A stretch of DNA of 64,000 bases from Alphaproteobacteria bacterium (GCA_021732145.1 JAKFVN010000005.1:7019-71018); one strand, 5' to 3'; positions 9,992 to 32,625 are shown, numbered from the stretch's first letter. Program-made: numbers and translations. The notes: generated by a model not told the origin, from the sequence alone.

Positions 9992-10047
9992 TTTCCATTG
10001 AACAACTTGCATCGTTACAAAAGCGGTTTGTGCTATTCAAATCGACT

Positions 10048-11616: not shown

Positions 11617-11662
11617 GTGCACCATTCTTTCAGGCACATCACGCATAATGCTTGGATTGTTG

Positions 11663-12010
11663 GGGAAATTAAAACCCGCAGCAGTGCCAGAATTTTGCTA
11701 ACACCAACCCTACTGCGGGCAGATCGTTCTGCTTGAACAGGAACGAAGCTTCAATATATACGCCGATTTGCATAAAAAGTCATCAGGCTAAATTGCCATG
11801 ATTTGCAAATAATTAGCTGGACGATTCATGGCAAGCGCGTAGATTCGGCGGTGCTAACACCACCAACCAATCCAGTGACAGAATTCATTTTTACTCAGAA
11901 TAGTTTGAACGGCGCATTGTCCATTCCGCTTTTGCGGGTTGATGGCTCACGTCTGCGCTAACCTATTCGGGTATGCATGCATCTTTCACTGGTAACAGTG
12001 CCGGGATTCC
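11663..12010 (+). promoter_or_regulatory. conserved leader module, copy 1, upstream of the GT28 gene. The 49-nt invariant stretch is at 11671-11719.
   Basis: Contains the stretch aaaacccgcagcagtgccagaattttgctaacaccaaccctactgcggg (an imperfect hairpin); a promoter-like ttgcat-N15-taaatt; cgctggacgattca; a second gctaacacc box followed by ccagtgacagaat; and the hairpin ccgcttttgcggg. Confidence 0.6.
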
Positions 12011-13306: not shown

Positions 13307-13323
13307 AAACGAATATTCAAGAC

Positions 13324-15428: not shown

Positions 15429-15438
15429 ATTTTATGTG

Positions 15439-15810
15439 GGGGAATTTAAAACCCGCAGCAGTGCCAGAATTTTGCTAACACCAACCCTACTGCGGGCAGA
15501 CATTCTCGCTAAACAAGAATGAAGCAATTAGATATAAGATGATTTGCATAAAAAGTCGATGAGGTAAATTGATACGAAAGTAAAATTATTCGCTGGACGA
15601 TTCAGTCAAATAATATAAATTTCATGTTGCTAACACCAACAACAACCAGTGACGGAATACCCTACTCAATTTGAAAATTATGGCATGGCAGGTTTACCCG
15701 CTTTAGCGGGGTGATTTGCATCGGCATTTTTAACAACAGAACGCGCAGGAATTGCGTTTTCTGCATGTGTGGGCGCGTGTTTTTGAACTGGCAACATTGC
15801 CGGAATACGA
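15439..15810 (+). promoter_or_regulatory. conserved leader module, copy 2, upstream of the four-gene operon. The 49-nt stretch is at 15447-15495.
   Basis: Same ordered blocks as copy 1: the 49-nt stretch, ttgcat-N15-taaatt, cgctggacgattca, gctaacaccaacaacaaccagtgacggaat, the hairpin cccgctttagcgggg, and attgccggaatacga immediately before the ATG. Confidence 0.6.
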
Positions 15811-16776: not shown

Positions 16777-16805
16777 GGGCGTTTTTTGTTAAGTGAGGTT
16801 TGCTG

Positions 16806-19994: not shown

Positions 19995-22900
19995 TGGCCA
20001 TGCCAGACCCGCAGATGCAGCGCCATTTTTCCATGAACTATTACCGCGGGCCAGCGCAGGAAACGTTTTACAGCGCCCATCCTGATTACAGGCCATCATA
20101 TGATGATGTGCGGCATATGGTGGAAGCCGGAAAGCTCATTGAAATCTTCTATGATTTCGAAGCATCCGATAAACTGGCGGGCAGCGCCGTGCCAAAAGAA
20201 TATGCTGCGCTGGCCTTTGATTTGCGCGGGCGGCTGCTGGCGCATTTACGCATTCCCATCGCTATTCCCGAGCATCAGGCCTATGCCATTGGCGCGGCAT
20301 TGGTGGGCCGCATCGGCGTGCGTGATATGGCGCAAGGTTGGCCGGGCCATATGGCGGCGACCATGGTGCAAAACTTCCTTAAAGAATCCACACAGCTCAA
20401 CGGAAATGTATTAGGGCTAGAAGAAGTCACCTTTGCTGATGGCAAAAAAGGCTTCCGCTATGATTTGCCAAGCGATGGCAAAGCGCCGGTTGAATTGGAA
20501 ATCCACCAAAGCGGAAAAAAATTCCGTTTTGCTGGCGAGGAAGACTGGCAAAAAATCTACGGCGTATCGCAGCCATTCAACGGCGAAAATTATGATGACC
20601 CGATGGCCAGCCATTGGTATGCGCGCATGGGCATGGCGAGCCTGTTCCCCGGAAACCAGAAACGCCACGATACATTCCGCGAAGACGTGCGCGCCAAAGC
20701 CATTTGGGAATGGGCATTTGGCAAGCAAGGCAAGGATGGTTTGGTGTTGCCAGACCGCTGGCATAAAAAGACCAAACGCATGGTGCGCTCAACGCGCCTT
20801 GGCGATATTTTGCTGGCCAATAGCCGTACAGCCAACCGTGCGCGCGGTGTGGAAGGCGGGGCGGTGTTCTATGATGGCCGCGACCCAGACCCAGAAATCA
20901 TGCATGCATCCGATGAAGATGCGGCGGGTACAGCCGCGCTTAGTTTTTATCTGCGCCGCCTTGACCCTGAAGGCATGCGGTTTGTTTCCAGTTTGGCAGA
21001 GCGCAATAGTTATAAGGATTTCCTGCAAGGCACGGATGATTTCACCGACCGCCCGGCGCTTGGTTTCGTGCATTATGATGAAGGGATGCTGACGCGCGGC
21101 ATTGGCACGCTGCTGGCGACCGATGATGAATATGACGGCTTTGGCGACCGCAAGCGCGCGCTGCTGTTTAATTTATGCCATAATCCCGATGATTTATTGC
21201 ATTTGAACCATGAACAATTGCGCCCGCTGCTGGTGCAGCGGCACAACCCGATTTTTGTGCCATTGGTTTTAAACCGCACGCCGCAAGTGTGCGAATTTGA
21301 CCGCGCCTATAAGGCAGGCGCGGGCGGGCAGCACTCACCGGAAGAATATCACCGCCGCCGCCATGTTATTCTTAGCCACCGCGCATTCATTCAGCGCGTG
21401 ATGGAAACGCAGCTGGATTTGGTTAGCGTAACGCGTCCGCCCAATATCGTGACGACGCGGTCATTGGAAGACGATAGTTACAGTAGATATGGCGATTTGA
21501 AATACTTTGCGTATAAGGATGCTGCGACGGGGCAAGTTATCCCCATTCGCAAAACGGAATACCCTGATGTGTATGCACGCGCGACCAATAAATGGAATTA
21601 TGTGCGCCAGTTTGATTATTTGCTGCGCAGGGCAACCGAAGGTCATGCGATTGAATACAGCGATGATGACACAGCGCTGCTGGATTATCAGGAACGGCTG
21701 AAGGAAGTTGAACGCAAGTTGAAAGCGCATCAAGTCGGGTGGGATAAGCCGTTCACTTTGCCGGAAACCGGCATGGCGCTGGGCACGATTGAAGATGCGC
21801 GCATGCATTTATGGACGCTGCGCCACGCATGCCGCGCCGCATTGTTCAATTGCGTGCCGGAATTCTGGGTGATTAATTCGCGTGGGCAGCGTTTGCCGTG
21901 GGAAAAAGTGATTGCGATGGAAAGCGGCACGCGCAAAGGGCAATGGCCGCTGCGCGAAGACCGCGAAACGGGCGACCATTTGCGCATTACGTTTGAGCGC
22001 AATGATAAATTGCATGCCATTATCACCGCGCTGCGCGTTTTAGATGCCGATGCGTTTCTTGCAAAGCAGGGAAGCAGGCGCTGGCAAGAATGGTGGCGCA
22101 ATTATGTGGATACGAACTACGCCGAATGGAAACCGTTTTACGAAGCGTTTATCACATTGGGCGTGCAAGGCCCGCCGAACTTAGAGGCATCCGAACAGCG
22201 CCGCATGAGCGAGCGCAAGGCATTGCTGGAAATCGACCAGTTGATGAACAAGGCGGCGGAAACACCCGCCAGCGATTACATCCGCACGGTTTTAAAAACG
22301 CCGCAGGGGCAAAAACTGCTCGCGGAGCATCACGCGCATAAAAAACGCCGCATGAAAGCGTATCGGTGGACACCGGATAAGATGGAATTGATGGGATACG
22401 ATGCGCAGACGGCGTACCCAACGCTGAATACGCGTTACCGCATTGACCCGAAGAAGCTGATACGCCTGAAAGTGCCGGATGTAATGCTGGATCACCCGGA
22501 TTGGGATGATCACTGGCATCGCTTCCATATTATTGAACGCCCGCACCGCGATGTGCTGCGCGCCATTGAAAAGGCCGGGCCGGATACAGTCGTGTTGCTG
22601 GAAGGCGAAGCCACAGGCATGTTCCGCCTGGCAGCAAAAGCCGTGTGTCACCGCTTGCCGCCGCAGGGCGAGCGCACCCAGCAGGCAATTGCACGCGCAA
22701 AAAGTTCATATGGCACGGTTGGCAGGCAGTTATCCGGCCTTGCCGATGGGTTGCGCCTATTGAGTTTCGAGCAAATGGCGCCCGTGCATTTTGAACGCAA
22801 GGTGGATGAGTGTATTCAGCATGTCGCACTGCCGGCGCAGGATTGGGCGGGTTTAGCCGATGCCCGCGCAGGTGGTTTGCCAAAACCGCTGAAGAAGCTG

Positions 22901-23305
22901 ACCGGCATTATTGTGCGTGATACGGGTCAGGAATTCACCCAAGGGGATATTCGCCTGCGCCGCATGTCACGCGGGGAAGAAACGGGCGATGAGTATTCAG
23001 GGCGCCTCAAATCCGCGCAGCGCGTATCGCTCGACGATATTTGCAAGATGAGCGATGCGCAGGCGCAGCCATTCGGAAAATTATCCGCCGCCGATTTATA
23101 CAGCCAATGGAAAAAACTATTTGCCGATATGCGCGTCACTGACCCCGCCAAACAAAAGCTGTGGATTTTGAAGCTGGAGCGCCCGGTTAGCAAACTGACC
23201 TACACTTATTTCAACCGCGCGCAGCAGCCGGTTGCTGCGTTTATTTCCACACGGCCATTAAAAGGCCGCCAACAAAAACCGCAAGCTAGAAGGGCCGCAG
23301 CATGA
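19994..23305 (+). CDS. large hypothetical protein (1103 aa)
   Basis: Its start overlaps the upstream stop by 1 nt (TGATG). No NTPase motif. A possible DnaQ-like Exo-I-type DxE (IFYDFEASD) lies near the N-terminus. Confidence 0.55.
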   Translation: MAMPDPQMQRHFSMNYYRGPAQETFYSAHPDYRPSYDDVRHMVEAGKLIEIFYDFEASDKLAGSAVPKEYAALAFDLRGRLLAHLRIPIAIPEHQAYAIGAALVGRIGVRDMAQGWPGHMAATMVQNFLKESTQLNGNVLGLEEVTFADGKKGFRYDLPSDGKAPVELEIHQSGKKFRFAGEEDWQKIYGVSQPFNGENYDDPMASHWYARMGMASLFPGNQKRHDTFREDVRAKAIWEWAFGKQGKDGLVLPDRWHKKTKRMVRSTRLGDILLANSRTANRARGVEGGAVFYDGRDPDPEIMHASDEDAAGTAALSFYLRRLDPEGMRFVSSLAERNSYKDFLQGTDDFTDRPALGFVHYDEGMLTRGIGTLLATDDEYDGFGDRKRALLFNLCHNPDDLLHLNHEQLRPLLVQRHNPIFVPLVLNRTPQVCEFDRAYKAGAGGQHSPEEYHRRRHVILSHRAFIQRVMETQLDLVSVTRPPNIVTTRSLEDDSYSRYGDLKYFAYKDAATGQVIPIRKTEYPDVYARATNKWNYVRQFDYLLRRATEGHAIEYSDDDTALLDYQERLKEVERKLKAHQVGWDKPFTLPETGMALGTIEDARMHLWTLRHACRAALFNCVPEFWVINSRGQRLPWEKVIAMESGTRKGQWPLREDRETGDHLRITFERNDKLHAIITALRVLDADAFLAKQGSRRWQEWWRNYVDTNYAEWKPFYEAFITLGVQGPPNLEASEQRRMSERKALLEIDQLMNKAAETPASDYIRTVLKTPQGQKLLAEHHAHKKRRMKAYRWTPDKMELMGYDAQTAYPTLNTRYRIDPKKLIRLKVPDVMLDHPDWDDHWHRFHIIERPHRDVLRAIEKAGPDTVVLLEGEATGMFRLAAKAVCHRLPPQGERTQQAIARAKSSYGTVGRQLSGLADGLRLLSFEQMAPVHFERKVDECIQHVALPAQDWAGLADARAGGLPKPLKKLTGIIVRDTGQEFTQGDIRLRRMSRGEETGDEYSGRLKSAQRVSLDDICKMSDAQAQPFGKLSAADLYSQWKKLFADMRVTDPAKQKLWILKLERPVSKLTYTYFNRAQQPVAAFISTRPLKGRQQKPQARRAAA

Positions 23306-25572
23306 GCACAGAACCCGATTATGCAGCATTATACCGTGATGTTCATTTGTTTGGCGAGAAGCGCGGAATGTTTTCACCGTTTTATCAAGCGCATGCGCGA
23401 AAGAAAGGCCCGCGCTTTGACCAAATGCGTGCGGTGAACACGGTTGCGTTTGTAACATTGGCGCAGTTGCTGCAGGGCAAACGCACGATTTACCGCTTTG
23501 GTGCGATTTCAAAAGGCATGCGTGCCAATTATCAGGCGAAGATGAACGGCCCATTCATGGTGGAACGCGGCGACGGGTCATTAAAGCGCGGTTTTGATAC
23601 GCTTGATCTCGATGAAAAAATTGGCTCGCAGCAATATGTCGCCGAAGTCATTCTGCCGAACCAGCGCACGCAGATTGAGGGTCTCAGCTTCCTGCGTTCG
23701 CTGTTTCCGGAAAGCCCGGTGATTGTGCCCGCGTTTTTGCAGGCAGCAACCGTGCTGGCTGGCCAGCCCAATTTCGACCGTGGCGTAAAGCGCAAGGACA
23801 AGGATTACATGGTGCTGTGGGACCCCGTGATTGTGGAGTTGATTAACATGCTGCCCATGCAGGGGGATTGGCATTTCTCGCGCTCATCACACCTTGAACT
23901 GGGCCGCGCCGTGTTGATTGCCGCGGGATTGGAACCACGCAGACCCGAAGCGGATATGAGCTTCCCCGATGTTGAAAAAAATGAAGTCACACTATTTGAA
24001 ATGGCAAAGAAACGCCTTGAGTACCTGGTATGGGCGGCAGAAAACAAATTTGATTTGGATATAGAGCCAACGCATCTTGTTCGTGACTTGGCGATTGCGC
24101 AAATGGCGGAGCGCGGGCTGCTGCCCAATGCCAACCCCGTATTCATGGCGGGGATTGAAGCGAATATTGCAGGCCTTCGTGAGTTGCAAAAGGAAGTCGA
24201 ACCGTTTTTGCTGGCGCAAATTAAAGCGGATAAGTTTGAAATTGATACAACGGATTTGAAAGCGGTTAATCCCAATTTCGCGTTTTCCGTTGAAGCGGCA
24301 AAGAGCGGTGTATTGCCCGCCTCATCCTTCAGTCTTTCGGGCATTGCGGACAGGTTCGGTTTGCGCCGCTATTCCGATGCCGATTTGCAATCGGATATTT
24401 ATAACAGTGAAGAAATCCAGCGCATGAACAGGCAGGGGTTTGCGCTGGGCGCGGGGGATATTTTCCTTCCCCCCATGCGCCCCAGCGATACGGAGGCCAA
24501 ATCGCTGAAAGACCATGATGGGCGCAGCATTTTCTCCCGCCCCGTCATCACCGATTTGACCGAGCGTGAGATGATGCAGGCGCAGTTTGTGCTGGGCGCG
24601 GCAGAAACATTCATGCTGCCTGCCAAGCGCACGCTGTTTATTGTCGCCGATGATAAGTACGGGCCGGAAACCGCAAAACTGAACGGGCTGGCGTATGATG
24701 ATGAAGCGCCCAATGCCGCTGGCGCGGAGTTCCAAAAGAAAGTTCGCGAGCCGCATCGCGCCATCATCCGTGACTTGCAGCACCAGCTAAGCGCGCACGG
24801 CCATGTGATTAGCGCGCCGGACTTCCAACGTGTTTATGGCGTGTTCCAAGCCTTACCGGAATTTGCGGTATCGCCCGGCGAAGCCATGCCCGGAAGCGCG
24901 GCGCGGCTGGCGGCACGGCACCGTTACCTTGCGCGCAACGTGACCGATTTTGTGTTCAAGACAGGAATGTGGGAACAGTCGAATGACGGGGTGCAGGATA
25001 TGATTTTGGCAACCCGCATGCAGTTGGGACTGGAATCTGGCGCAGCACATGAACCGCACACCATTCGTGTCGTTGACGAAAACGGCAAGCCGCTATCGCT
25101 GGCTGACCGTGCGATGGCGATATGGCCGCAGTTGAAGAAGGCGATTGAAGCAGGGCGTGACGCGCATGATTTGGTGGAGCCAGCAACGGCGATTGCGCAG
25201 TGTTGGGCGTTCCACCGCTTGCTCACCGATCATCCGCTGCGCCAGATGGTGTTCACCGATTTACGCGAAAAAGAAAAGCTGTTCCTCCCCGCGAATATGA
25301 ATTGGCACCGCTTGCCCGTGCAACCCGGGGCCTATGGCCAGCAGGAATTTGAAAAATTATGGCATGACGAAATCAAGCCTGCGCTCGAAGGACGCATGGC
25401 AATGGCCGTGCGCACGCGTCACTTATCGCACATGGATGATTTTGCGGAATTAAAACGCAGGCAGGATGCCGCGCAAAAAATGGATATGGCTGGCACGCGG
25501 CCAGAAGCGGCGCGCGCGGCAAAAAGCGGCGGCGTGGCTGGCGTGCGCGAAGCGGCGCGCAATACCATGTGA
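23302..25572 (+). CDS. hypothetical protein (756 aa), last gene of the large operon
   Basis: Overlaps the upstream gene by 4 nt (ATGA). No recognised motif. Confidence 0.55.
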   Translation: MSTEPDYAALYRDVHLFGEKRGMFSPFYQAHARKKGPRFDQMRAVNTVAFVTLAQLLQGKRTIYRFGAISKGMRANYQAKMNGPFMVERGDGSLKRGFDTLDLDEKIGSQQYVAEVILPNQRTQIEGLSFLRSLFPESPVIVPAFLQAATVLAGQPNFDRGVKRKDKDYMVLWDPVIVELINMLPMQGDWHFSRSSHLELGRAVLIAAGLEPRRPEADMSFPDVEKNEVTLFEMAKKRLEYLVWAAENKFDLDIEPTHLVRDLAIAQMAERGLLPNANPVFMAGIEANIAGLRELQKEVEPFLLAQIKADKFEIDTTDLKAVNPNFAFSVEAAKSGVLPASSFSLSGIADRFGLRRYSDADLQSDIYNSEEIQRMNRQGFALGAGDIFLPPMRPSDTEAKSLKDHDGRSIFSRPVITDLTEREMMQAQFVLGAAETFMLPAKRTLFIVADDKYGPETAKLNGLAYDDEAPNAAGAEFQKKVREPHRAIIRDLQHQLSAHGHVISAPDFQRVYGVFQALPEFAVSPGEAMPGSAARLAARHRYLARNVTDFVFKTGMWEQSNDGVQDMILATRMQLGLESGAAHEPHTIRVVDENGKPLSLADRAMAIWPQLKKAIEAGRDAHDLVEPATAIAQCWAFHRLLTDHPLRQMVFTDLREKEKLFLPANMNWHRLPVQPGAYGQQEFEKLWHDEIKPALEGRMAMAVRTRHLSHMDDFAELKRRQDAAQKMDMAGTRPEAARAAKSGGVAGVREAARNTM

Positions 25573-25604
25573 TGGATTGGGCAATCGAGTGAGTTAGGAT
25601 TTTC

Positions 25605-25944
25605 GAGGACTAAAAACCCGCAGCAGTGCCAGAATTTTGCTAACACCAACCCTACTGCGGGTCATTGCGTTCTGAACGTTGAAGCAGAACGAACCTTCAT
25701 ATTTATGCTGATTTGCCTAAAGAGTCGATATGGAAAATTGATACGAAAGTAAAATAATTCGCTAGACGATTCATTTTATTCGGGTAAGTTTTGCGTCGCT
25801 AACACCACTAAACCAGTGACAGAATCACTATCTGAACATGCATGTGGCACAATGTGATTACCCGCTTTAGCGGGGTAGTCTTGCGCCAAGCTTGATGTGC
25901 ATGTGGATAACTTTCTGGCATTGGCACAATTGCCGGAATATCCA
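25605..25944 (+). promoter_or_regulatory. conserved leader module, copy 3. The 49-nt stretch is at 25613-25661.
   Basis: Same blocks as copies 1 and 2, including the hairpin cccgctttagcgggg at 25861-25875 and caattgccggaatatcca immediately before the ATG at 25945. Confidence 0.6.
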
Positions 25945-27042
25945 ATGCCCCACAAGGCACACGAAGAACCAGAACCCAAAATTGCCCAAATAAGCCCGGA
26001 TGTGCTGCGTCATATTGACCGCGCCAATAATGTTGATTGGGACAGGGTTGTGCCGCTTGCCATCAATTATGGCCGTTGCAGAGCAACTGGCATAATGGTG
26101 AAAGAGTTTGCCGAAGAGCTGGCGGCGGCTGGCTTCGTAAAGCAGGCAGGCAACGGTACTTATGCGCTGAATATCGAAAAGCACCCGCTGGCCAAGGAAG
26201 ATGTTGAAGCGCATATCAAGACAGTCGAGCAATACTGCATTGAAAAGAAGCATATTGCGGAGCTGCGCGGCGAGCGCCTGTATTTAACCGACAGTTTAAA
26301 CCCCGAACATAAAGACCGCTATGCCACCTATGACCGCAATTTGCGCGTGATGGGCTTTTGGGTGCATTCGGTATGCGTGATTACGCATCAATGCACGGGC
26401 GAGCATAAGGGCGATCTCATTCTGGCGGAACGCCACCCGCTGATTATCGAAACCAAGAATGACAGCAAATGGGATCCGTTATCGGGCGCGATTGCCGCGG
26501 GCACAACGCCATTTGAAACATTGGTCAGCGAAGGGTTTGATGAGTACGGTTTAAGCGAGCGCCAGATGCGCCGCGCGCGACCCTTAACAACAGTGACAAC
26601 GCAGCGCGTGTGCAGCGAAAACTCAAATCATATTGTGCGTGAACGTGTGCAGGTCAGCATGCTTGGCTTAACCGGAAAAGAATTCAAACGCCTGGCCTGC
26701 CATGACGTGAAAGATGTGGTGGTGCGGCACGGCGAAGGCACGCGCAAGATGGGCGTGACATCGAATGTCGGCTTTGTGCGCGTATCGCCTGGCAAGGTGA
26801 TGGAGCATTTGCGCAAGCGCAAGCACTTGAAGAACGGCAAGGCCTTATCGATGCTCAGCTATTTGGTGCGTGAGGGCCATACTGCAGCAGCCGACCCCAG
26901 CGCGGCAGATATCCGCAATCGCCTTGCGCATAAGCCAAAAACCTATTGCCGCACCAGCAAAACCTGGAAAATGCATATCCGCACGCCGGTTCGCGGCGCG
27001 ATGCGTCATGCGCAACCTGCACAATGCAGGCTTGCGGCATGA
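25945..27042 (+). CDS. hypothetical protein with a degenerate Nudix-like box
   Basis: GAIAAGTTPFETLVSEGFDEYGL resembles the Nudix motif Gx5Ex7REUxEExGU. I set the start at 25945 because the leader alignment with copy 2 places the ATG there; the longer ORF from 25897 would run over conserved leader sequence. Confidence 0.5.
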   Translation: MPHKAHEEPEPKIAQISPDVLRHIDRANNVDWDRVVPLAINYGRCRATGIMVKEFAEELAAAGFVKQAGNGTYALNIEKHPLAKEDVEAHIKTVEQYCIEKKHIAELRGERLYLTDSLNPEHKDRYATYDRNLRVMGFWVHSVCVITHQCTGEHKGDLILAERHPLIIETKNDSKWDPLSGAIAAGTTPFETLVSEGFDEYGLSERQMRRARPLTTVTTQRVCSENSNHIVRERVQVSMLGLTGKEFKRLACHDVKDVVVRHGEGTRKMGVTSNVGFVRVSPGKVMEHLRKRKHLKNGKALSMLSYLVREGHTAAADPSAADIRNRLAHKPKTYCRTSKTWKMHIRTPVRGAMRHAQPAQCRLAA

Positions 27043-28139
27043 GTTTTATCACAACGCGTGATTTATTCATTGACGCTGCACGCATGGTTGCCAAACGGAT
27101 GAAAATTATCCACCCGCGCCCATTGCTGATGCGGCTTGATTTTGAAGACGGCGTTCACCTGTTCACGCATGGCGCAAAACCAAATCTCAATACGATTGGC
27201 GTTGGCAAAATCGCCAGGGATAAGGATTTAACGGTGCGCGTTCTGGAAAATCTGGGCTTGCCCACGCCGCCATCGCATTTCGTTGAATTAACGCGCGAAA
27301 AATTTGCCAAGGCCGATGACATTACCCAGACAGCGGAATATAAGGCGTTGGATGCGTTTGCGCAGCGCGTGGGTTACCCGATTTTTCTAAAGCCCAACCA
27401 GGGTTCGCAGGGTTGCAATGTGTTCTGCGTGCCGGATGAAGATAAGCTGAAAAATATTGTGGGTTCACTGATTAAACGCGCGCCGGGTTATTTCATCGCG
27501 CAGGAAGCATCAGTGGGCGAGGAATACCGCATTGTAGTGGTGCAGGGTGAAATCCAGCTTGCCTATTACCGCCGCCCGTTATCGGTAGTGGGGGATGGCG
27601 TTGCAACCATTCAGCATTTGGTTGACCGCCAGAATAGATGGCTGCAAAAACGCGGCCGCCATACCAATTTGAAATCCAATAGCGATAAAATTAAAATGCA
27701 TTTGGCAAGCCAAGGCCTGCGCCTTGATAGCGTATTGCCAATGGGCGATGTGGTGACGGTATTATCTAACCGCAATCTGTCCGATGGCAGCGAGCCCGTT
27801 GAATGCACGCAGATGATACGCGAAAAATACAGCGCGCTGTGTCGCGATGTTTATGAGCGGGGCGGCGTTGATTATTGCGGGTTGGATTTAATCGAAGATA
27901 TTCGCAGCGGTCAGATTAAACCTGTAATCATCGAAATTAACAGCAGCCCCGGCTACAAGCATTTCATTCGCAGCGCGCCGGAAAACCCGCCGCTGGTGCG
28001 CAGCGTATTCATCGAAGCCATTCATGCATCGCACCGCAAGCAGGTGCTGCTGCATTCGGCATACCGCCCCAGCGTTTATCTTTTAACCAGCACCACGCCG
28101 CCGCAACCCCCGCACGCCGCACTGTTAATCCAGGGATGA
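27039..28139 (+). CDS. ATP-grasp family ligase (RimK/cyanophycin-synthetase-like fold)
   Basis: PIFLKPNQGSQGCNVF, EEYRIVVVQGEI and GLDLIED...PVIIEINSSPG fit ATP-grasp motifs. The start overlaps the upstream stop (ATGA). Confidence 0.65.
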   Translation: MSFITTRDLFIDAARMVAKRMKIIHPRPLLMRLDFEDGVHLFTHGAKPNLNTIGVGKIARDKDLTVRVLENLGLPTPPSHFVELTREKFAKADDITQTAEYKALDAFAQRVGYPIFLKPNQGSQGCNVFCVPDEDKLKNIVGSLIKRAPGYFIAQEASVGEEYRIVVVQGEIQLAYYRRPLSVVGDGVATIQHLVDRQNRWLQKRGRHTNLKSNSDKIKMHLASQGLRLDSVLPMGDVVTVLSNRNLSDGSEPVECTQMIREKYSALCRDVYERGGVDYCGLDLIEDIRSGQIKPVIIEINSSPGYKHFIRSAPENPPLVRSVFIEAIHASHRKQVLLHSAYRPSVYLLTSTTPPQPPHAALLIQG

Positions 28140-28143
28140 AAGG

Positions 28144-29424
28144 ATGCCCCGTATGACCGCACCCCCAAGCAATAGCCATGCAGCGCATGATTTATTTGCG
28201 CCCGCAGCGCAGCAGGTTTCCTTAAGCGATGCAATTGAATTGCACCGTTTTCAGGGCGTGAAGGACGCGCACCGCGTCGCGCTGATTGAAAGATTGCTGC
28301 ACGGGCTTGCCACGGTTGTGCCCAGCAAGGCGAATAGCGACATTTTGCTGATGGTGTGCGGCAATGAAGAACATTTTCGCTTGGCCAAAAAACTGATGGC
28401 TGAATTCAGTGACATGTTCGCGGCTGTAAAAGAAAAGCATGACAATAATAAAAAATGCGTTGAAGCGATGCATGAGCGCGTGAAAACCATGCGTGAAAGC
28501 AATGGCCTGTTTAAAGACAGGGATACGAAGGTTCCAGGCTTCCTTCGTGATGTGAAGCTGCGCCCGCGCGAAGCCTTAAGCGAAGGCCAAACCCCGCTGA
28601 TTGATAGCCTTGCCGATGAAACCACCAATATCATTGCCGTGCTGGGGCATTTTGGTTCGGGCAAAACCTATCTGGCGGTGGCGCAGGGGCTTGAGGATAT
28701 TATCACGGGCCGCCGCACCAAGCTGATTGCGACGCGTAAAGAGTCGCCGGTGCATAAGCAAATCGGCTTTGTGCCGGGCACCCAGCACGACAAAACCAAG
28801 CGTGATAACCACGCCGTGTTTGAAAATCTGGTCAAGGTGATGATGGATTGGGGCGTGCCTGAAAAGGATGCGATTGATAAAACCGAACGCCTCATCAAGC
28901 CATCCAAATCATTATTACCGGGGCAGGAAATTGTTGAAGTGGTGCTGCCCGCGCAATTGGAAGGCCGCACCATCCACGATGCGGTGATTATCCTGGATGA
29001 AGCGCATGGCATTCCCACCGCGTTGATGCGCGGCATTCTGGGACGGCTTGGCAATAATTCGAAGCTCATTATCATGGGGGACTTCCACCAGATTAATGAC
29101 AAGCGCTTGCGCCAAACCCATTATGATGAAGATGACGGATGCGGCCTTGCCTATGCGGTGTCGTTTCTGGCCGATAGCCCGAACATTGATAACATTGCCA
29201 TGATTGTGAACATGGATGCCAAGGATGTGCATCGCAGCGCGGCAACGCGCGAAGTTGCCTTTGCGATGCAGGCTTACGCTAAAAAGCGCGGGCGTTTTCC
29301 CGTATGGCAGGGTGATATTGATAATGCGCTGGTGCAATATGCGGAACGCAAGCAAACCGCAATGCGTTCAAACGTGGCAACGCTGCGCAGGTCGCGCATT
29401 GCCACTGCATCCTGCGATGCCTGA
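28144..29424 (+). CDS. PhoH-like ATPase with an N-terminal extension of about 170 aa
   Basis: Walker A LGHFGSGKTYLAVA, ATRKESPV...GFVPGT, and Walker B IILDEAHG match PhoH-family motifs. Confidence 0.7.
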   Translation: MPRMTAPPSNSHAAHDLFAPAAQQVSLSDAIELHRFQGVKDAHRVALIERLLHGLATVVPSKANSDILLMVCGNEEHFRLAKKLMAEFSDMFAAVKEKHDNNKKCVEAMHERVKTMRESNGLFKDRDTKVPGFLRDVKLRPREALSEGQTPLIDSLADETTNIIAVLGHFGSGKTYLAVAQGLEDIITGRRTKLIATRKESPVHKQIGFVPGTQHDKTKRDNHAVFENLVKVMMDWGVPEKDAIDKTERLIKPSKSLLPGQEIVEVVLPAQLEGRTIHDAVIILDEAHGIPTALMRGILGRLGNNSKLIIMGDFHQINDKRLRQTHYDEDDGCGLAYAVSFLADSPNIDNIAMIVNMDAKDVHRSAATREVAFAMQAYAKKRGRFPVWQGDIDNALVQYAERKQTAMRSNVATLRRSRIATASCDA

Positions 29425-29500
29425 TTGAGTCGCAGGCATGATGCGGCTGAAATGAGGCAGCTTGTTTCGCCGGCGATGGCGGTGGTATCGTCAGCTTATG

Positions 29501-30574
29501 AAATTCAAAGCATTTTTATTATCGGTCATTATTTCTCTCGTCCTGTTGTGCGTCCCGGCTTTTGCCAAGGATGCGCAACCTGCTGCACCTGCCAAAGCAC
29601 CCGTTGCGGCCGCGCCTGTTCAGGACAAAACCATTTTGCCGCCTAAAATCGCGCCGGATAAACTGCCAAAGAAAATCAAGCTGGCCGGCAGCGCCTATAT
29701 TCCGTTCAAGACATGGGATAGGGGCAAGGAAATTCAAGGGGGCGGATTTTTATTGCTGCCGCCTAATCTCATTATCGGTAAGGACAAGGTTCCGGTTGTC
29801 ATCATTATGCATGGCAGCAGGGGCGTGACGCCCGAGCATGAATATGTCTATGCGCGGGAATTGGTCGCGATGGGCGTGGCTGCCTTTGTGGTGGATAGTT
29901 ATACACCGCGCGGCATTGCCACGACGCATGAAAACCAGCGCCTTATCTCCATTCGCGACTTCACGCTCGATGCGTACCGCGCGCTTTATGAACTGCGCAA
30001 GGAACCGCGCGTGGATATCAGCAGGGCAGGGATTGTCGGCTTTTCCAAGGGCGCGATTATTTCATTGCTGACCGCAATGAATGTGAAACGCAATGAATTG
30101 CGCATTGATAAAAATTTGAAGTTTAAAGCGCATTATCTGTTTTATCCCGGATGCGTGCTGCATTACCGCGATAATTCAACAACCGGCGCGCCGATTACGT
30201 TCTTCCTTGGCGAAAAGGATACGTATACCGGCGTGAAGCCATGCGTGAATTTGTCGAACGAATTATTTGCCAATGGCGCAAAAACGCAGAGCATTATTTA
30301 CAAAGACGCCGTGCATGCATGGGATTTTCCCGGCGAAGAAGCGCACCCCGAAGCGGAAGTATTTATGAATTGTGATTTTTACCAGCAGCCCGATAACACA
30401 TGGATCGAAAAGAAATCCGGCGTGACGGGCATTCGGGGATTGGAAGGCCCCACTTATGAAAAAGCGCTGAAGGGTTGCCTGACCTTTGGCGAAGTTTCAA
30501 AAGAAAACGCGAAAGCCAATGCGCAATCGATGGCGGATTTCAAGCGCCTGGTGAAAGAGCAGCTTTTTAAATAG
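29501..30574 (+). CDS. secreted alpha/beta hydrolase (dienelactone-hydrolase-like)
   Basis: Signal peptide MKFKAFLLSVIISLVLLCVPAFA and nucleophile elbow GFSKG. I chose the ATG at 29501; the longer ORF from 29462 is less likely. Confidence 0.6.
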   Translation, partial: KFKAFLLSVIISLVLLCVPAFAKDAQPAAPAKAPVAAAPVQDKTILPPKIAPDKLPKKIKLAGSAYIPFKTWDRGKEIQGGGFLLLPPNLIIGKDKVPVVIIMHGSRGVTPEHEYVYARELVAMGVAAFVVDSYTPRGIATTHENQRLISIRDFTLDAYRALYELRKEPRVDISRAGIVGFSKGAIISLLTAMNVKRNELRIDKNLKFKAHYLFYPGCVLHYRDNSTTGAPITFFLGEKDTYTGVKPCVNLSNELFANGAKTQSIIYKDAVHAWDFPGEEAHPEAEVFMNCDFYQQPDNTWIEKKSGVTGIRGLEGPTYEKALKGCLTFGEVSKENAKANAQSMADFKRLVKEQLFK

Positions 30575-30729: not shown

Positions 30730-32433
30730 TTGCTGGCACCCTTGGACAAAGTTTTAGCTTTTTCTCCCGCTGGTGCAGCGGCGCCTGCCAGCCGCCTAGA
30801 GCGAAGCAACGAAGCCAAATACAAAACTGGCAAAGAACTGGCAGAATTCTGCAAAAAGCATAATATTCCCCATGTGCTTGATGCCACCAGCATGGTGTTG
30901 CCAACGCGCGAATTGCAGGATTTGTTCAGCAAAGAATATCCAATTTCGTGGTTTCCGGATATTGGCCTGCGCCAGGAAGGTGCATCCACCGTTATTGCGC
31001 TGGAAAGCAAGAACAAGGACAGCCCCGATAGTCTGCACGGCCATGTGATGTCGGCGATTTCCGGTTATGTCGCCAAGAAATTGGGGATGGTGACGGATAG
31101 CGTTTATATCCAAGCCGACCCCGAACTGGAATACCGCGTGGCGTTTCAACCGGCATTGGTTGACCCCATGACCACGCTGCTCAAAGACCAAGGCGCGGCG
31201 GTTATTTCATCCTGCGTTGAATGGAATGACTTGTTTCTTGATTTTGGTCACAAGGCCGACAGCCAATACGAATTATTCTGGCATACAACGGCGTTTGCGT
31301 TTACTTCGGCTGGGAATAACGGCCTTTATGGGCCTGATGGCGATATTAAAGTTCCAACACAAAAGCACATGGCGTTTTGTCATGCGCCCCCGCTTGCCGC
31401 CAGTGTCGGCGCGGTGGAGTGGGGCGAACGTACGTCGATGCTGACCGAAGGTTTTTATATTCCGGGTTATAGCTCGGCAAATGGGCCGACATTCTTGGCG
31501 CCGGTTGCGCCGCTGGCCAAAGTGAAATGGAAAAATGACAAAGAACCGGAAGCGATTACTGGTTCATCCGCGGCAGAGCCTTATGCGGCGGGTGTGTTTG
31601 CGGCGCTGAACAAACGCTTTGGCCCATATTTAACGCGTGAACAGATTTTGTTCGCGGTGATTGCGACCTGCGATAAGACCACGCAGGTGCATAAATTCGA
31701 TAAGCAAACGCCGGATGATTACTCCATTATCTACAAGCCAAATGCGGCGGGGCATACTTTTAACGACGGGCCGGGCGGCTTTGGTATGATTAACCCATAC
31801 AAGGCGCATCGTTTATTGGCGCATATGGTTCTGTTGACACAGAACAATCCGGATTTAATTACCGAGCCAACGGAAGTACGCGCGGAATTGCCCATTCCAA
31901 AAAATCCTGCCAGCTATGCGGCGAAGGATGGTTTTTATTATTATGAGATTGAATTGCCAGCGGGCTATGCATTGAAGACCACGATTGAAGCGCAATTCAC
32001 CAACGCAGAGGGCGTTGATGTGGCGCATGGTCAATTGCGCATGACCAGCCCATCGGGAACGGAGTTTGCGATGGTGACCAGCCGTTCCTATAAGGATGGT
32101 GTGTTTAATGGTGTATCCACAACGCATGGCTTTACGGGCGAGCAAACCGCAGGCACATGGCGCGTGCGCAGCACCGAACCCATCAGCCATCTGCGCATTA
32201 GCGCGCATCGCTTCATGGAAGGCGATGTTGTTCATCAATTGGATATTAAACGGCTAATGAATACACCAGAGCCGTATATTCAGAATGCGGTGCCATTGGT
32301 TGAATTGAAAAATGATTTGCGCGCGGTGCAAACGGTTGCCATGCAACCGCGCCGTCCGCAGCATGCCGCAAAAGGGGCAGAAAGAATGCCTCATGCTTCT
32401 GCGTTTCCGCAGGTTGCTGTCGCAGCGATGTAG
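30730..32433 (+). CDS. subtilisin-like serine protease (peptidase S8) with a C-terminal beta-rich domain. The start codon is uncertain.
   Basis: Candidate Asp region HVLDATS, His motif LHGHVMSAISG, and Ser motif GSSAAEPYAAGVFAAL resembling GTSMAAPHVAG. Confidence 0.6.
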   Translation: MLAPLDKVLAFSPAGAAAPASRLERSNEAKYKTGKELAEFCKKHNIPHVLDATSMVLPTRELQDLFSKEYPISWFPDIGLRQEGASTVIALESKNKDSPDSLHGHVMSAISGYVAKKLGMVTDSVYIQADPELEYRVAFQPALVDPMTTLLKDQGAAVISSCVEWNDLFLDFGHKADSQYELFWHTTAFAFTSAGNNGLYGPDGDIKVPTQKHMAFCHAPPLAASVGAVEWGERTSMLTEGFYIPGYSSANGPTFLAPVAPLAKVKWKNDKEPEAITGSSAAEPYAAGVFAALNKRFGPYLTREQILFAVIATCDKTTQVHKFDKQTPDDYSIIYKPNAAGHTFNDGPGGFGMINPYKAHRLLAHMVLLTQNNPDLITEPTEVRAELPIPKNPASYAAKDGFYYYEIELPAGYALKTTIEAQFTNAEGVDVAHGQLRMTSPSGTEFAMVTSRSYKDGVFNGVSTTHGFTGEQTAGTWRVRSTEPISHLRISAHRFMEGDVVHQLDIKRLMNTPEPYIQNAVPLVELKNDLRAVQTVAMQPRRPQHAAKGAERMPHASAFPQVAVAAM

Positions 32434-32447
32434 GGGGAGTTAATCAT

Positions 32448-32625
32448 TGGAGCGGGGATGAGGATTCGAACCCTGTGCCGCTTTGCGGCACGTATAAATT
32501 TGTCGAGGGTTCCTGACAACTACCGCTAGCTCTCAATGGAGCGGGGATGAGGATTCGAACCCTGTGCCGCTTTGCGGCACGTATAAATTTGTCGAGGGTT
32601 CCTGACAACTACCGCTAGCTCTCAA
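32448..32625. repeat. two tandem 89-bp direct repeats (32448-32536 and 32537-32625). Each begins with a tRNA-Gly-3'-end-like segment and contains a perfect 7-bp hairpin gtgccgc-ttt-gcggcac.
   Basis: The two units are identical by eye. Their first roughly 27 nt resemble the T-arm and acceptor 3' end of the adjacent tRNA-Gly (tggagcggg...attcgaaccct). A manual fold of either unit into a full cloverleaf failed. Confidence 0.7.

What the first reader, a model, noticed from the sequence alone, without database searches (positions are those of the whole stretch)
25945..29424. Coupled operon of a Nudix-like protein, an ATP-grasp ligase and a PhoH-like ATPase, under the third leader copy
The three genes overlap or abut: ATGA at 27039, and a 4-nt gap before 28144. 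The ATP-grasp enzyme has a RimK/cyanophycin-synthetase-like ATP-binding core. The PhoH-like protein has complete Walker A (GSGKTY) and Walker B (IILDEAHG) motifs plus an unusual N-terminal extension of about 170 aa. The first protein shows a degenerate Nudix-like box. PhoH-like proteins are normally stand-alone or paired with PIN/KH domains. Coupling to an ATP-grasp ligase is not a textbook arrangement. It may mark a nucleotide- or peptide-modifying pathway that is co-regulated with the other two operons.
Basis: partly seen in the sequence, partly recalled or inferred. Interest (0 to 1): 0.6.

Follow-up and report, generated by a model that had tools for sequence, protein, structure and literature searches.

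The report
Rare Nudix, ATP-grasp, PhoH operon
Three tightly packed genes (a very divergent Nudix hydrolase, a stand-alone amino-acid ligase and a PhoH-type ATPase) form a real operon kept in a handful of uncultured Rhodospirillales-like bacteria. It most likely processes an adenine nucleotide-derived small molecule, but its product is unknown.

Summary
Three co-directional genes lie at 25945-27042 (A), 27039-28139 (B) and 28144/28153-29424 (C), behind the third copy of a ~345-nt leader.

- **A** is a Nudix-fold protein. Its AlphaFold model has pLDDT 85.8 and matches PDB 3DUP end to end. The metal-binding Glu residues of a degenerate Nudix box are kept.
- **B** is a catalytically complete stand-alone ATP-grasp ligase. 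It is closest to the cyanophycin-synthetase G domain and GshAB, and it is not a RimK.
- **C** is a PhoH ATPase. Most of its "unusual" N-terminal extension is the ordinary N-terminal domain of YbeZ-type PhoH proteins.

The trio recurs in six distinct genomes, but the coupling is not obligatory:
- B is reduced to an in-frame 39-codon mini-ORF in the nearest relative.
- B occurs without A or C in one genome, and A occurs alone in two.
- Two PhoH subtypes only 22-27% identical to each other occupy the third slot.

Neighbours elsewhere are adenine-nucleotide enzymes: 5'-nucleotidase, a divergent AdoHcy hydrolase, a LOG-like protein and AMP nucleosidase.

My best reading is a nucleotide-derived small-molecule pathway. 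The main rival is a phosphate-stress scavenging regulon. The families are extremely rare and the function is untested.

The parts
25600..25944 (+). Leader copy 3, the shared cis element in front of the operon. It contains hairpin SL1 (25617-25661), GCTAACACC boxes at 25639-25647 and 25798-25806, hairpin P2 (25668-25691), hairpin SL3 (25861-25874), and the motif TGCCGGAAT (25931-25939) 5 nt before the ATG.
   Evidence: Three copies in the window. Sixteen whole or partial candidates were aligned. GCTAACACC occurs 6 times in the window against 0.2 expected by chance. P2 folds in at least 8 of the 11 copies that carry SL1, and SL3 in 14 of 15 copies, each with different stem sequences. No Rfam match.
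25945..27042 (+). Gene A, 365 aa. A divergent Nudix-fold protein of the DUF4743+Nudix (PDB 3DUP) type. Its degenerate Nudix box is G181-x5-T-x7-S-E196-G-F-D199-E200-Y-G202-L.
   Evidence: AlphaFold2 model with pLDDT 85.8 and pTM 0.82. Foldseek top hit is 3DUP: E 9e-16, TM 0.85 on the target, 324 columns. hhalign against a true DUF4743+NUDIX protein gives 96.6% probability and E 6e-10. G181, E196 and E200 are invariant in 13 sequences. Only 7 cluster representatives exist among 1.84 billion proteins.
27039..28139 (+). Gene B, 366 aa. A stand-alone ATP-grasp amide ligase whose start overlaps the stop of A (ATGA).
   Evidence: Pfam RimK 34.6 bits. NCBIfam: cyanophycin synthetase G-domain region E 6e-37, GshAB E 7e-23, rimK_fam E 2e-16, all far below the equivalog cut-offs. 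PDB sequence matches are CphA-type proteins (8FXH, 7LGN), E about 1e-19. About 11 close homologues among 5.8 billion proteins.
28144..29424 (+). Gene C, a PhoH-family P-loop ATPase of 426 aa (or 423 aa if it starts at the better-placed ATG at 28153). It has a YbeZ-type N-terminal domain, Walker A GSGKT, Walker B DEAH, and GDxxQ.
   Evidence: Pfam PhoH 109.8 bits over residues 145-374. PDB 3B85 E 1e-17. The alignment to a YbeZ-type PhoH covers residues 50-384. Six close homologues, then a gap to canonical PhoH at E 1e-16.
29498..30574 (+). Dienelactone-hydrolase-like alpha/beta hydrolase with a signal-peptide-like N-terminus (MKFKAFLL...AFA). It follows C after 73 nt. It is a neighbour only in this lineage, not part of the conserved trio.
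   Evidence: Pfam DLH E 3e-14. It follows PhoH only in the window and L001.
30730..32433 (+). Weakly subtilase-like or P-domain protein, the last gene before tRNA-Gly. A neighbour only in this lineage.
   Evidence: Weak Pfam matches: P_proprotein E 5e-4, Peptidase_S8 E 0.09. 61% identical to its L001 counterpart.
11658..12010 (+). Leader copy 1. It precedes a glycosyltransferase (diglucosyl-DAG-synthase-like), a metallophosphoesterase and a HAD hydrolase (12011-15428).
15435..15810 (+). Leader copy 2. It precedes four orphan genes of 321, 1064, 1103 and 756 aa (15811-25572).
   Evidence: No Pfam family reached its curated cut-off and no PDB match was significant; the only weak hit was Lactamase_B_2 at 19.9 bits against a cut-off of 27.

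Best explanation
**What it is.** The three genes are one transcription unit, driven from a shared leader of about 345 nt with conserved hairpins. A and B are translationally coupled, and probably B and C too.

**What it does (inferred).** They encode part of a rare accessory pathway that acts on an adenine nucleotide- or nucleoside-derived small molecule.
- A is a divergent 3DUP/YJR142W-type Nudix protein that keeps the metal-binding Glu/Asp residues. It hydrolyses a di- or triphosphate linkage of a nucleotide-like intermediate to give the monophosphate.
- B is a CphA-G-domain/GshB-like ATP-grasp ligase. It activates a carboxylate as an acyl phosphate and forms an amide bond with an amino acid or amine.
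- C is a YbeZ-type PhoH ATPase. It supplies an ATP-dependent accessory step, or handles or protects a nucleic-acid or ribosomal partner.

In other genomes the same unit is extended by a 5'-nucleotidase and a divergent NAD-dependent AdoHcy-hydrolase-like enzyme. A LOG-like protein or an AMP nucleosidase can take the latter's place. An FAD amine-oxidase-like protein (DAO family) is also often nearby. This combination follows the logic of aminoacyl- or peptidyl-nucleoside pathways such as puromycin: NAD-dependent dehydrogenase, Nudix hydrolase, monophosphatase and amino-acid ligase.

**Shown versus inferred.**
- Shown: gene structure, folds and families, conservation, neighbourhoods, and the shared leader.
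- Inferred: catalytic activity, the adenine-nucleotide substrate, the direction of the pathway (building rather than breaking down), and any role for C.

**Confidence.** About 0.5 for a joint nucleotide-derived small-molecule pathway. About 0.3 for the specific biosynthetic, peptidyl-nucleoside-like version.
For: **Operon structure**
- ATGA overlap between A and B; 4 or 13 nt with an AAGGA motif between B and C.
- No terminator-like site between the genes.
- In L001 the deleted B survives as an in-frame 39-codon mini-ORF. It keeps the ATGA overlap and the Shine-Dalgarno motif before C, which suggests that coupling is under selection.

**Conservation**
- A-B-PhoH occurs in the window, L004, L002/L003, L005/L006, L007 and L015. 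Identities are 48-59% for A and 53-70% for B.
- The third slot is always a PhoH-type ATPase, even where it is a different subtype (22-27% identity).

**A is probably still an enzyme**
- Nudix fold.
- E196 and E200 are invariant, and D199 lies on the predicted Nudix helix (residues 189-201).

**B has the ATP-grasp motifs**, seen in its alignment to CphA-type structures.

**Nucleotide theme in the neighbours**
- PF06189 5'-nucleotidase (E 6e-32).
- Full-length divergent adenosylhomocysteinase (E 4e-21).
- LOG family TIGR00730 (E 4e-11).
- A bona fide AMP nucleosidase (357 bits, cut-off 307) directly abutting an A homologue.

**Precedent.** The puromycin, A201A and cystocin pathways combine an NAD-dependent ATP dehydrogenase (Pur10), a Nudix hydrolase (Pur7), a monophosphatase (Pur3) and an amino-acid ligase (Pur6) (PMC11641026).

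**Accessory character**
- The gene families are very rare, gene content is mixed and matched between genomes, and the locus lies between two tRNA genes.
Against: - No activity has been tested.
- The window itself has no 5'-nucleotidase, SAHH-like or DAO homologue within its 64 kb. The extended-pathway argument is therefore borrowed from other genomes.
- B is dispensable in the nearest relative, while A and C stay 81-86% identical.
- A, B and C each occur without the others somewhere.
- No aminotransferase, exporter or regulator is conserved in the cluster.
- PhoH proteins have no known role in small-molecule pathways; their known biochemistry is RNA-dependent ATPase or helicase activity (PMC7824862).
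- The Nudix box lacks the canonical Arg and one Glu, so A could be a non-catalytic binding protein.
Confidence: 0.45

Rival explanations
1. **Phosphate-stress scavenging regulon.** The shared leader marks a set of operons that are switched on when phosphate is scarce. In this reading:
- The glycosyltransferase, metallophosphoesterase and HAD genes replace phospholipids with glycolipids.
- The Nudix protein, 5'-nucleotidase, AMP nucleosidase or LOG-like enzyme break nucleotides down to release phosphate and ribose.
- PhoH is here, as in E. coli, a phosphate-starvation protein.

The trio would then be catabolic, not biosynthetic.
For: - E. coli phoH and amn are both directly activated by PhoB (PMC10294691).
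- plcP (a phospholipase C) often forms an operon with a glycosyltransferase behind a Pho box in marine bacteria, including Alphaproteobacteria such as SAR11 and roseobacters (PMC4796936).
- Operon 1 of the window encodes a diglucosyl-DAG-synthase-like glycosyltransferase (E 1e-20), a metallophosphoesterase with a weak LpxH-like N-terminus, and a HAD hydrolase.
- 5'-nucleotidase and AMP nucleosidase are neighbours of A in other genomes.
- One leader type heads all the modules.
Against: - No canonical Pho box (two TGTCA repeats 11 bp apart) was seen in the leader. Only a single TGTCA(C/T) or GTC core is conserved (inspected by eye).
- The ATP-grasp ligase, the SAHH-like enzyme, the DAO-like oxidase and the 321-1103-aa orphan proteins have no obvious place in scavenging.
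- True phosphate-stress genes are widespread, whereas these families are among the rarest in the databases.
- No pst, phoU or phoBR genes lie nearby in any locus.
Confidence: 0.25
2. **RNA- or ribosome-directed module.** C is a paralogue of YbeZ, the PhoH-like partner of the rRNA-maturation nuclease YbeY, and it acts on RNA. A works like RppH, removing pyrophosphate or a nucleotide cap from RNA 5' ends. B works like RimK, adding amino acids to a ribosomal or other protein.
For: - C aligns over its N-terminal and P-loop domains with ordinary YbeZ-type PhoH proteins.
- PhoH2 proteins are RNA helicases (PMC7824862).
- After 3DUP, the next-best structural matches of A are RppH structures.
- B matches the RimK family profile.
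- The A-C pair persists without B.
Against: - The RppH matches are generic Nudix-core matches: TM about 0.27 on the query, against 0.67 for 3DUP.
- Relatives of the 3DUP/YJR142W type that have been tested act on small diphosphates, namely oxy- and oxo-thiamin diphosphate and GDP (PMC5158307).
- B scores higher on the cyanophycin-synthetase and GshAB profiles than on RimK.
- No nuclease, ribosomal-protein or RNA-modification gene is a conserved neighbour, whereas nucleotide-metabolising enzymes are.
Confidence: 0.12
3. **No joint function.** Three unrelated accessory genes are merely packed together on a genomic island and inherited as a block.
For: Each gene can be lost or can occur alone. The locus lies between two tRNA genes with repeat scars.
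Against: - The same gene order is kept at 48-59% protein identity for A in genomes whose flanking genes differ completely.
- Start/stop overlaps are conserved.
- The PhoH slot is kept by two very different subtypes.
- The mini-ORF in L001 preserves coupling.
Confidence: 0.08

Closest known systems
DUF4743+Nudix hydrolases (PDB 3DUP from Rhodospirillum rubrum; yeast YJR142W/YJ9J, Arabidopsis NUDT20)
   Same: - The same two-domain fold over nearly the whole length: Foldseek E 9e-16, TM 0.85 on the target.
- Profile match of 96.6% to a family member.
- Shared motifs before the Nudix box (YDRNL..G..VHS, and R..P....DS.WD..SGAI).
- The Glu of 'RE' and the last Glu of 'EE' are kept.
- Tested members hydrolyse small diphosphates: oxy- and oxo-thiamin diphosphate and GDP (PMC5158307).
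   Different: - Only about 18-21% identity.
- The window protein scores below the Pfam NUDIX cut-off (12.4 bits against 21.1).
- In the Nudix box, Arg is replaced by Ser, the first Glu is lost, and one Glu is replaced by Asp.
- It has an extra basic C-terminal tail of about 40 residues.
- It sits in an operon with an ATP-grasp ligase and a PhoH ATPase, which I did not find described for this family.
Cyanophycin synthetase G domain, GshAB (GshF) C-terminal ATP-grasp domain, and RimK
   Same: An ATP-grasp core with the ATP- and Mg-binding motifs. All of these enzymes make peptide or amide bonds through an acyl phosphate.
   Different: - B is a stand-alone 366-aa protein without the N and Mur-ligase-like (M) domains of CphA1 and without the GshA domain.
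- It scores far below every equivalog cut-off: 127 of 850, 81 of 425, 60 of 143.
- The substrate is unknown.
PhoH family: E. coli PhoH, YbeZ-type PhoH-like proteins, and PhoH2 (PIN-PhoH)
   Same: The complete PhoH P-loop domain with Walker A, Walker B and GDxxQ, plus an N-terminal domain that aligns with YbeZ-type proteins.
   Different: - About 27-33% identity to canonical members.
- About 45 extra N-terminal residues, and a ~17-residue insertion between Walker A and B.
- DEAHG in place of DEAQN.
- No PIN domain.
- It is not next to ybeY/corC but downstream of a Nudix gene and an ATP-grasp gene.
Aminonucleoside and peptidyl-nucleoside antibiotic pathways (puromycin pur, A201A, cystocin; also polyoxin and nikkomycin, which from my own knowledge use ATP-grasp ligases)
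   Same: The enzyme logic matches the extended cluster seen in related genomes. That logic is an NAD-dependent oxidoreductase acting on an adenine nucleotide, a Nudix hydrolase giving the NMP, a monophosphatase, and an ATP-dependent amino-acid ligase (PMC11641026).
   Different: - No sequence relationship to the Pur proteins was tested or is claimed.
- No aminotransferase, methyltransferase, resistance acetyltransferase or exporter is conserved.
- The host is an uncultured alphaproteobacterium, not an actinomycete.
- The window carries only the Nudix and ligase steps, plus PhoH.

Membership tests
Nudix superfamily (PF00293) | Nudix alpha/beta/alpha fold | tested here: met
   AlphaFold2 model with pLDDT 85.8. 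Foldseek finds 254 PDB matches at E<=0.001; all 50 listed are Nudix proteins, and the best is 3DUP at E 9e-16. Caveat: one true Nudix protein (P0148) was one of the 13 rows of the input alignment.
Nudix superfamily (PF00293) | Pfam NUDIX score at or above the gathering cut-off (21.1 bits) | tested here: not met
   The window protein scores 12.4 bits, E 0.17. Four of 8 close members match weakly. The distant homologue P0144 reaches 22.4 bits.
Nudix superfamily (PF00293) | Nudix box GX5EX7REUXEEXGU | tested here: inconclusive
   The box reads G181-x5-T-x7-S-E196-G-F-D199-E200-Y-G202-L203. G181, E196 and E200 are invariant in 13 sequences. The Arg and the first Glu are not kept.
Nudix superfamily (PF00293) | Diphosphatase activity on a nucleoside-diphosphate-X substrate | not testable with these tools
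   Needs an enzyme assay.
DUF4743+Nudix (3DUP/YJR142W type) | N-terminal DUF4743-like domain followed by a Nudix domain and a C-terminal helical part | tested here: met
   hhalign covers 205 columns, including the region before the Nudix domain and the C-terminal helices. The Foldseek alignment to 3DUP spans 324 columns. P0148 itself matches 3DUP at E 2e-36.
Cyanophycin synthetase (CphA1/CphA2) | ATP-grasp G domain plus a Mur-ligase-like M domain (CphA1), with a score at equivalog level | tested here: not met
   B is only 366 aa. The match covers positions 209-449 of the 862-position model, at 127 bits against a cut-off of 850.
RimK (ribosomal protein S6 glutamate ligase) | Score at or above the rimK_fam cut-off (143.4 bits) | tested here: not met
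   59.9 bits. The Pfam RimK-like ATP-grasp domain model, which is broader, is met at 34.6 bits against 21.
ATP-grasp superfamily | ATP-binding Lys, hinge Glu, and the Mg-binding Asp/Glu/Asn motif | tested here: met
   FLKPNQGSQG, AQEASVGEEYR and GLDLIED...IIEINSSPG align with the corresponding motifs of 8FXH and 7LGN.
PhoH family (PF02562) | PhoH domain above the cut-off, with Walker A and Walker B | tested here: met
   109.8 bits against 27, covering positions 5-203 of the 205-position model. GSGKT and ILDEAH are present.
PhoH2 (PIN-PhoH RNA helicase/RNase) | N-terminal PIN domain | tested here: not met
   No PIN match. The RNA5-3helPhoH2 model scores 63.5 bits against a cut-off of 680 and matches only the P-loop part.
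Pho regulon (PhoB-controlled genes) | A Pho box (two TGTCA-type repeats 11 bp apart) in the promoter, and induction by phosphate limitation | tested here: inconclusive
   No two-repeat Pho box was seen by eye in 16 aligned candidate leader sequences; a single TGTCA(C/T) or GTC core is conserved. Induction cannot be tested with these tools.
Known anti-phage defence systems (PADLOC) | A match to any defence-system protein model | tested here: not met
   No hits for A or B. C gives only a 13-bit P-loop match.

The most novel reading that the evidence does not exclude
The leader-marked gene set builds a previously unknown aminoacyl- or peptidyl-nucleoside-type metabolite in uncultured Rhodospirillales-like bacteria. 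The set comprises the Nudix protein, the ATP-grasp ligase, the PhoH ATPase, the SAHH-like enzyme, the 5'-nucleotidase, the DAO-like oxidase, the glycosyltransferase/metallophosphoesterase/HAD genes, and 1000-aa orphan proteins that reach no Pfam cut-off. In this reading the ~345-nt leader is a new structured cis-regulatory RNA that senses the product or a precursor. The divergent PhoH/YbeZ paralogue serves as a pathway ATPase or as a self-protection copy of the metabolite's target.
Probability: 0.15. Interest if true: 0.7.

Novelty: new variant of a known kind. Interest (0 to 1): 0.45.

Why it matters
PhoH proteins are widespread, including in phage genomes, yet their cellular role is poorly understood. 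A conserved, translationally coupled link between a PhoH ATPase, a Nudix hydrolase and an amide ligase, set in an adenine-nucleotide enzyme neighbourhood, gives a concrete and testable context for one PhoH branch.

The finding also defines three things:
- a new and very divergent branch of the 3DUP/YJR142W Nudix family;
- a new stand-alone relative of the cyanophycin-synthetase G domain;
- a lineage-specific leader with conserved hairpins that ties several orphan operons into one regulon.

The limit on its importance is rarity. The system is seen in only about ten metagenome-derived genomes, and nothing has been tested experimentally.

Tried and rejected
- **First AlphaFold2 run of A.** With only 7 close sequences it gave pLDDT 39.6 and was unusable. 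Adding six distant homologues fixed it.
- **Profile of A against PDB sequences.** Nothing significant.
- **afdb50 fold library.** Not available.
- **Anti-phage defence.** No PADLOC matches.
- **Phage origin.** A has no match in 50,697 phage records. B matches only GshF-like stretches at 24-25% identity.
- **Known RNA family for the leader.** No Rfam match above noise.
- **Leader in JGI metagenome contigs.**
  - The exact 27-mer gave 0 hits.
  - The gapped two-box pattern gave 94 matches in 86 stretches. None carries any other leader motif, so all are chance.
- **Long-range RNA helices in the leader.**
  - RNAalifold found only SL1 and SL3.
  - A column-pair covariation scan gave only short G-U-type artefacts.
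  - A riboswitch is therefore not demonstrated. Only local hairpins (P2, SL3) show compensatory changes.
- **Canonical Pho box, sigma-54 and EcfG-type promoters in the leader.** Inspected by eye; no convincing match.
- **Sigma-70 and terminator scan.** At background level.
- **Orphan proteins of 1064, 1103 and 756 aa.** No significant PDB sequence match.
- **GTDB species representatives.** Only one further genome encodes A.
- **Thiamin link.** thiO-thiS follow the trio in L002 only, so I treat this as coincidence.

Full report
**1. What is in the sequence**

The window is a piece of a bacterial chromosome. Around the region it carries proB, obg, uvrA, dnaE, dxr, bamA and mgtE. Between tRNA-Arg (9915-9991) and tRNA-Gly (32626-32700, minus strand) lie about 20 kb of plus-strand genes.

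These genes form three blocks. Each block is preceded by a copy of one leader of about 345-375 nt, at 11658-12010, 15435-15810 and 25600-25944.

The finding is the third block.
- A runs 25945-27042 and B runs 27039-28139. They share an ATGA overlap that I read directly.
- C follows B's stop after the four bases AAGG.
- That AAGG is part of an AAGGA Shine-Dalgarno-like motif. It sits too close to the ATG at 28144 and 8 nt before the ATG at 28153.
- The ATG at 28153 is the start that aligns with the relative L001 and with the database entry P0008. C is therefore more likely 423 aa, with a 13-nt gap.
- No terminator-like site separates the genes.
- The start of A at 25945, rather than the upstream GTG, is supported by the conserved MP.K N-terminus of all homologues.

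**2. The three proteins**

*A (365 aa).*
- It scores only 12.4 bits on Pfam NUDIX, below the cut-off. It has just seven homologues among 5.8 billion proteins and seven cluster representatives among 1.84 billion.
- The weakest of those representatives, P0148, is a genuine DUF4743+NUDIX protein with a canonical Nudix box. It is related to PDB 3DUP at E 2e-36. A profile of 13 A-family sequences matches P0148 with 96.6% probability (E 6e-10) over 205 columns.
- One distant A homologue, P0144, passes the Pfam NUDIX cut-off on its own.
- A first AlphaFold2 run with 7 sequences failed at pLDDT 39.6. With 13 sequences the model reached pLDDT 85.8 and pTM 0.82.
- The best PDB match of that model is 3DUP, aligned nearly end to end: E 9e-16, TM 0.85 on the target, rmsd 3.2 Å, 324 columns. 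Generic Nudix enzymes follow.
- The Nudix box reads G181-x5-T-x7-S-E196-G-F-D199-E200-Y-G202-L. G181, E196 and E200 are invariant across sequences as little as 27% identical, and they lie on the predicted Nudix helix.
- A is therefore a very divergent member of the 3DUP/YJR142W-type Nudix branch. It probably still binds metal and hydrolyses a diphosphate.
- Tested members of that branch act on oxy- and oxo-thiamin diphosphate and on GDP (PMC5158307). That YJR142W carries the DUF4743 domain is from my own knowledge.

*B (366 aa).*
- It is an ATP-grasp enzyme (Pfam RimK domain, 34.6 bits).
- Its best full-family matches are the G-domain region of cyanophycin synthetase (E 6e-37), the ATP-grasp half of GshAB (E 7e-23), rimK_fam (E 2e-16) and N-acetylglutaminylglutamine synthetase (E 7e-16). 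All are far below their equivalog cut-offs.
- The nearest solved sequences are CphA-type proteins. The ATP-grasp motifs align with them.
- B lacks the other domains of CphA and GshAB. It is a stand-alone amide ligase of unknown substrate, with about eleven close homologues.

*C.*
- It has a complete PhoH domain (109.8 bits, residues 145-374) with GSGKT, ILDEAH and GDFHQ.
- A BLAST alignment with an ordinary 336-aa YbeZ-type PhoH runs from residue 50 to 384.
- Most of the supposed extension is therefore the usual N-terminal domain of that type. The extra parts I identified are about 45 N-terminal residues and a ~17-residue insertion between Walker A and B.

**3. Conservation and variation elsewhere**

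I read the gene neighbourhoods of homologues on their contigs and compared them by BLAST.

| Locus | Arrangement |
|---|---|
| window | leader, A, B, C, DLH hydrolase, subtilase-like |
| L004 | truncated leader (no SL1/P2), A, B, C' |
| L002/L003 | leader, 196-aa gene, ..., 5'-nucleotidase, ..., SAHH-like, A, B, C |
| L005/L006 (an "uncultured Rhodospirillales bacterium") | leader, 196-aa gene..., 5'-nucleotidase, SAHH-like, A, B, C |
| L007 | leader, 196-aa gene, 488-aa gene, LOG-like, A, B, C |
| L015 | ..., 5'-nucleotidase, SAHH-like, A, B, C', DAO-like oxidase |
| L001 (nearest relative) | leader, A, B remnant, C, DLH hydrolase, subtilase-like |
| L008 | leader, 196-aa gene, A, frameshifted C; no B |
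| L102 | leader, 200-aa gene, SAHH-like, B; no A or C |
| L010 | three large orphan genes, AMP nucleosidase, distant A homologue; no B or C |
| L011 | another distant A homologue alone, after metH |

The order A-B-PhoH thus occurs in six distinct genomes. C' is a second PhoH subtype. The two C' copies are 50% identical to each other but only 22-27% identical to C, while A and B remain 53-70% identical. The slot is therefore kept for a PhoH-type ATPase regardless of subtype.

The coupling is not absolute, as the lower rows of the table show. In L001, A is 81% and C is 86% identical to the window proteins, but B is reduced to an in-frame 39-codon mini-ORF. This mini-ORF retains the ATGA overlap with A, the last codons of B, and the AAGGA motif before C. 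I read that as selection to keep ribosomes flowing from A to C.

**4. The neighbours give the theme**

The enzymes that recur beside the trio are:
- a PF06189 5'-nucleotidase (E 6e-32);
- a full-length but divergent adenosylhomocysteinase (E 4e-21);
- a LOG-family protein (E 4e-11);
- a true AMP nucleosidase (357 bits, cut-off 307);
- an FAD oxidoreductase of the DAO family.

The gene directly upstream of A is, in different genomes, the SAHH-like enzyme, the LOG-like protein or AMP nucleosidase. All three families act on adenine nucleosides or nucleotides.

The window itself lacks these genes. Its other two leader-headed operons encode a glycosyltransferase/metallophosphoesterase/HAD set and four orphan proteins that reach no Pfam cut-off and have no significant PDB match.

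**5. The leader**

- Sixteen whole or partial candidates from nine genomes align. Eleven are full length and carry SL1; five are truncated or weak matches.
- The conserved features are:
  - an almost invariant hairpin SL1, whose loop carries GCTAACACC;
  - a second GCTAACACC box 155-159 nt downstream;
  - a motif AGTGNCNGAAT that occurs three times, the last copy 3-5 nt before the start codon;
  - two hairpins whose stems differ in sequence between copies but still pair (partly). P2 shows CGUUC/GAACG, CAUUCU/AGAAUG, CAUUUC/GAAAUG and AUUCC/GGAAU. SL3 shows CCCGC/GCGGG, CCCAC/GUGGG and GCCC/GGGC.
- This points to a transcribed 5' leader with local RNA structure. However, no long-range helices or ligand-binding architecture could be shown, and there is no Rfam match.
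- The leader was not found in JGI metagenome contigs.

**6. Interpretation**

*Shown:*
- a real, conserved, tightly packed operon;
- the three folds and families;
- a shared leader;
- a nucleotide-enzyme neighbourhood;
- extreme rarity;
- mix-and-match gene content.

*Inferred:* the cassette acts on an adenine nucleotide-derived small molecule. A removes a (pyro)phosphate to give a monophosphate. B makes an amide bond. C provides an ATP-dependent accessory function.

The extended clusters resemble the logic of the aminonucleoside pathways for puromycin, A201A and cystocin. Those combine an NAD-dependent ATP dehydrogenase, a Nudix hydrolase, a monophosphatase and an amino-acid ligase (PMC11641026). 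This is an analogy of enzyme types, not a demonstrated homology.

*Main rival: a phosphate-stress scavenging regulon.*
- For it: E. coli phoH and amn are PhoB-activated (PMC10294691). plcP-glycosyltransferase operons remodel lipids under phosphate stress (PMC4796936). Operon 1 of the window looks like such a cassette.
- Against it: there is no recognisable Pho box. The ligase, SAHH-like, DAO-like and orphan genes do not fit. The families are too rare for a core stress response.

*Weaker rival: an RNA- or ribosome-directed reading* (YbeZ-like plus RppH-like plus RimK-like). A is specifically 3DUP-like, and B is closer to CphA and GshAB than to RimK.

Anti-phage defence and phage origin found no support.

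**7. Verdict**

The trio is real and conserved, and its neighbours suggest a nucleotide-related role. The PhoH extension is not unusual, and the ATP-grasp coupling is facultative.
- I rate it a new variant of known kinds of enzymes in an arrangement I did not find described.
- It is of moderate interest because it is confined to a few uncultured genomes and nothing has been tested.

Noticed in passing
window 9943-9993 and 11576-11626 (islet 9994-11575): An exact 51-nt direct repeat of the 3' half of tRNA-Arg flanks a 1.6-kb stretch of low G+C (0.38 against about 0.52). The stretch carries one HAD-like gene (10564-11448). It looks like the scar of a small element that integrated at the tRNA.
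   Followed up: partly
window 32444-32621 (minus strand, next to tRNA-Gly 32626-32700): Two tandem 89-nt copies, 99% identical. Their first 31 nt resemble the T-arm and acceptor 3' end of the adjacent tRNA-Gly, and the rest contains a long GC hairpin resembling a class II variable arm. Neither ARAGORN nor Rfam calls them tRNA. They may be tRNA-derived repeats or integration scars.
   Followed up: partly
window 15811-25572: Four co-directional orphan genes of 321, 1064, 1103 and 756 aa sit behind leader copy 2. No Pfam family reaches its cut-off and no PDB match is significant; the only hit is a weak metallo-beta-lactamase-fold match in the 1064-aa protein. They are conserved at 55-93% identity in L001, L004 and L010. 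In L010 they are followed directly by AMP nucleosidase and an A homologue.
   Followed up: partly
window 12011-15428: The operon behind leader copy 1 encodes three proteins. One is a diglucosyl-diacylglycerol-synthase-like glycosyltransferase (E 1e-20). The second is a 418-aa metallophosphoesterase with a weak LpxH-like N-terminus. The third is a HAD hydrolase. The combination resembles the PlcP-plus-glycosyltransferase cassettes used for lipid remodelling under phosphate stress. It is conserved in L004, L005, L007 and L102; on L002 only the metallophosphoesterase and HAD genes are present, with no glycosyltransferase homologue.
   Followed up: partly
window 15811-15880; L005 5368-5430; L007 6840-6900; L002 5150-5210: Non-homologous first genes behind the leader share an N-terminal peptide..(A)LRERAELCP... 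It occurs in the 321-aa protein of the window and in the 196-aa family of other genomes. Weaker versions (LLQRAEPC, LLRAQP) occur in two glycosyltransferases. Conservation of the leader therefore seems to run about 15 codons into the coding region.
   Followed up: no
leader copies: window 11658-12010, 15435-15810, 25600-25944; L001, L002, L004, L005, L007, L008, L010, L102: Within each leader the box GCTAACACC occurs twice, 155-159 nt apart. The motif AGTGNCNGAAT occurs three times, and its last copy overlaps the probable ribosome-binding site. Copies that follow a divergently transcribed gene (L005 and L007, before the glycosyltransferase) lack SL1 and P2; so does the copy before A in L004, although the gene upstream of it runs in the same direction. 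Those two hairpins could therefore belong to the 3' end of the upstream transcript.
   Followed up: partly
L004 6714-7949 and L015 9102-10310: A second PhoH-like subtype occupies the position after A-B. The two copies are 50% identical to each other and 22-27% identical to the window type. They share conserved positions in the N-terminal region with the window type.
   Followed up: partly
L005 13607-13750, L007 13592-13735, L004 7963-8139: A small ORF follows the PhoH gene in three genomes: 47 aa in L005 and L007 (72% identical to each other) and 58 aa in L004. The window and L001 have no room for it, with only 73-75 nt before the next gene.
   Followed up: no
window 5184-8863 (minus strand): Two adjacent paralogous genes of about 610 aa each combine many TPR repeats with a C-terminal glycosyltransferase family 9 (heptosyltransferase-like) domain. 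A family 2 glycosyltransferase lies beside them.
   Followed up: no
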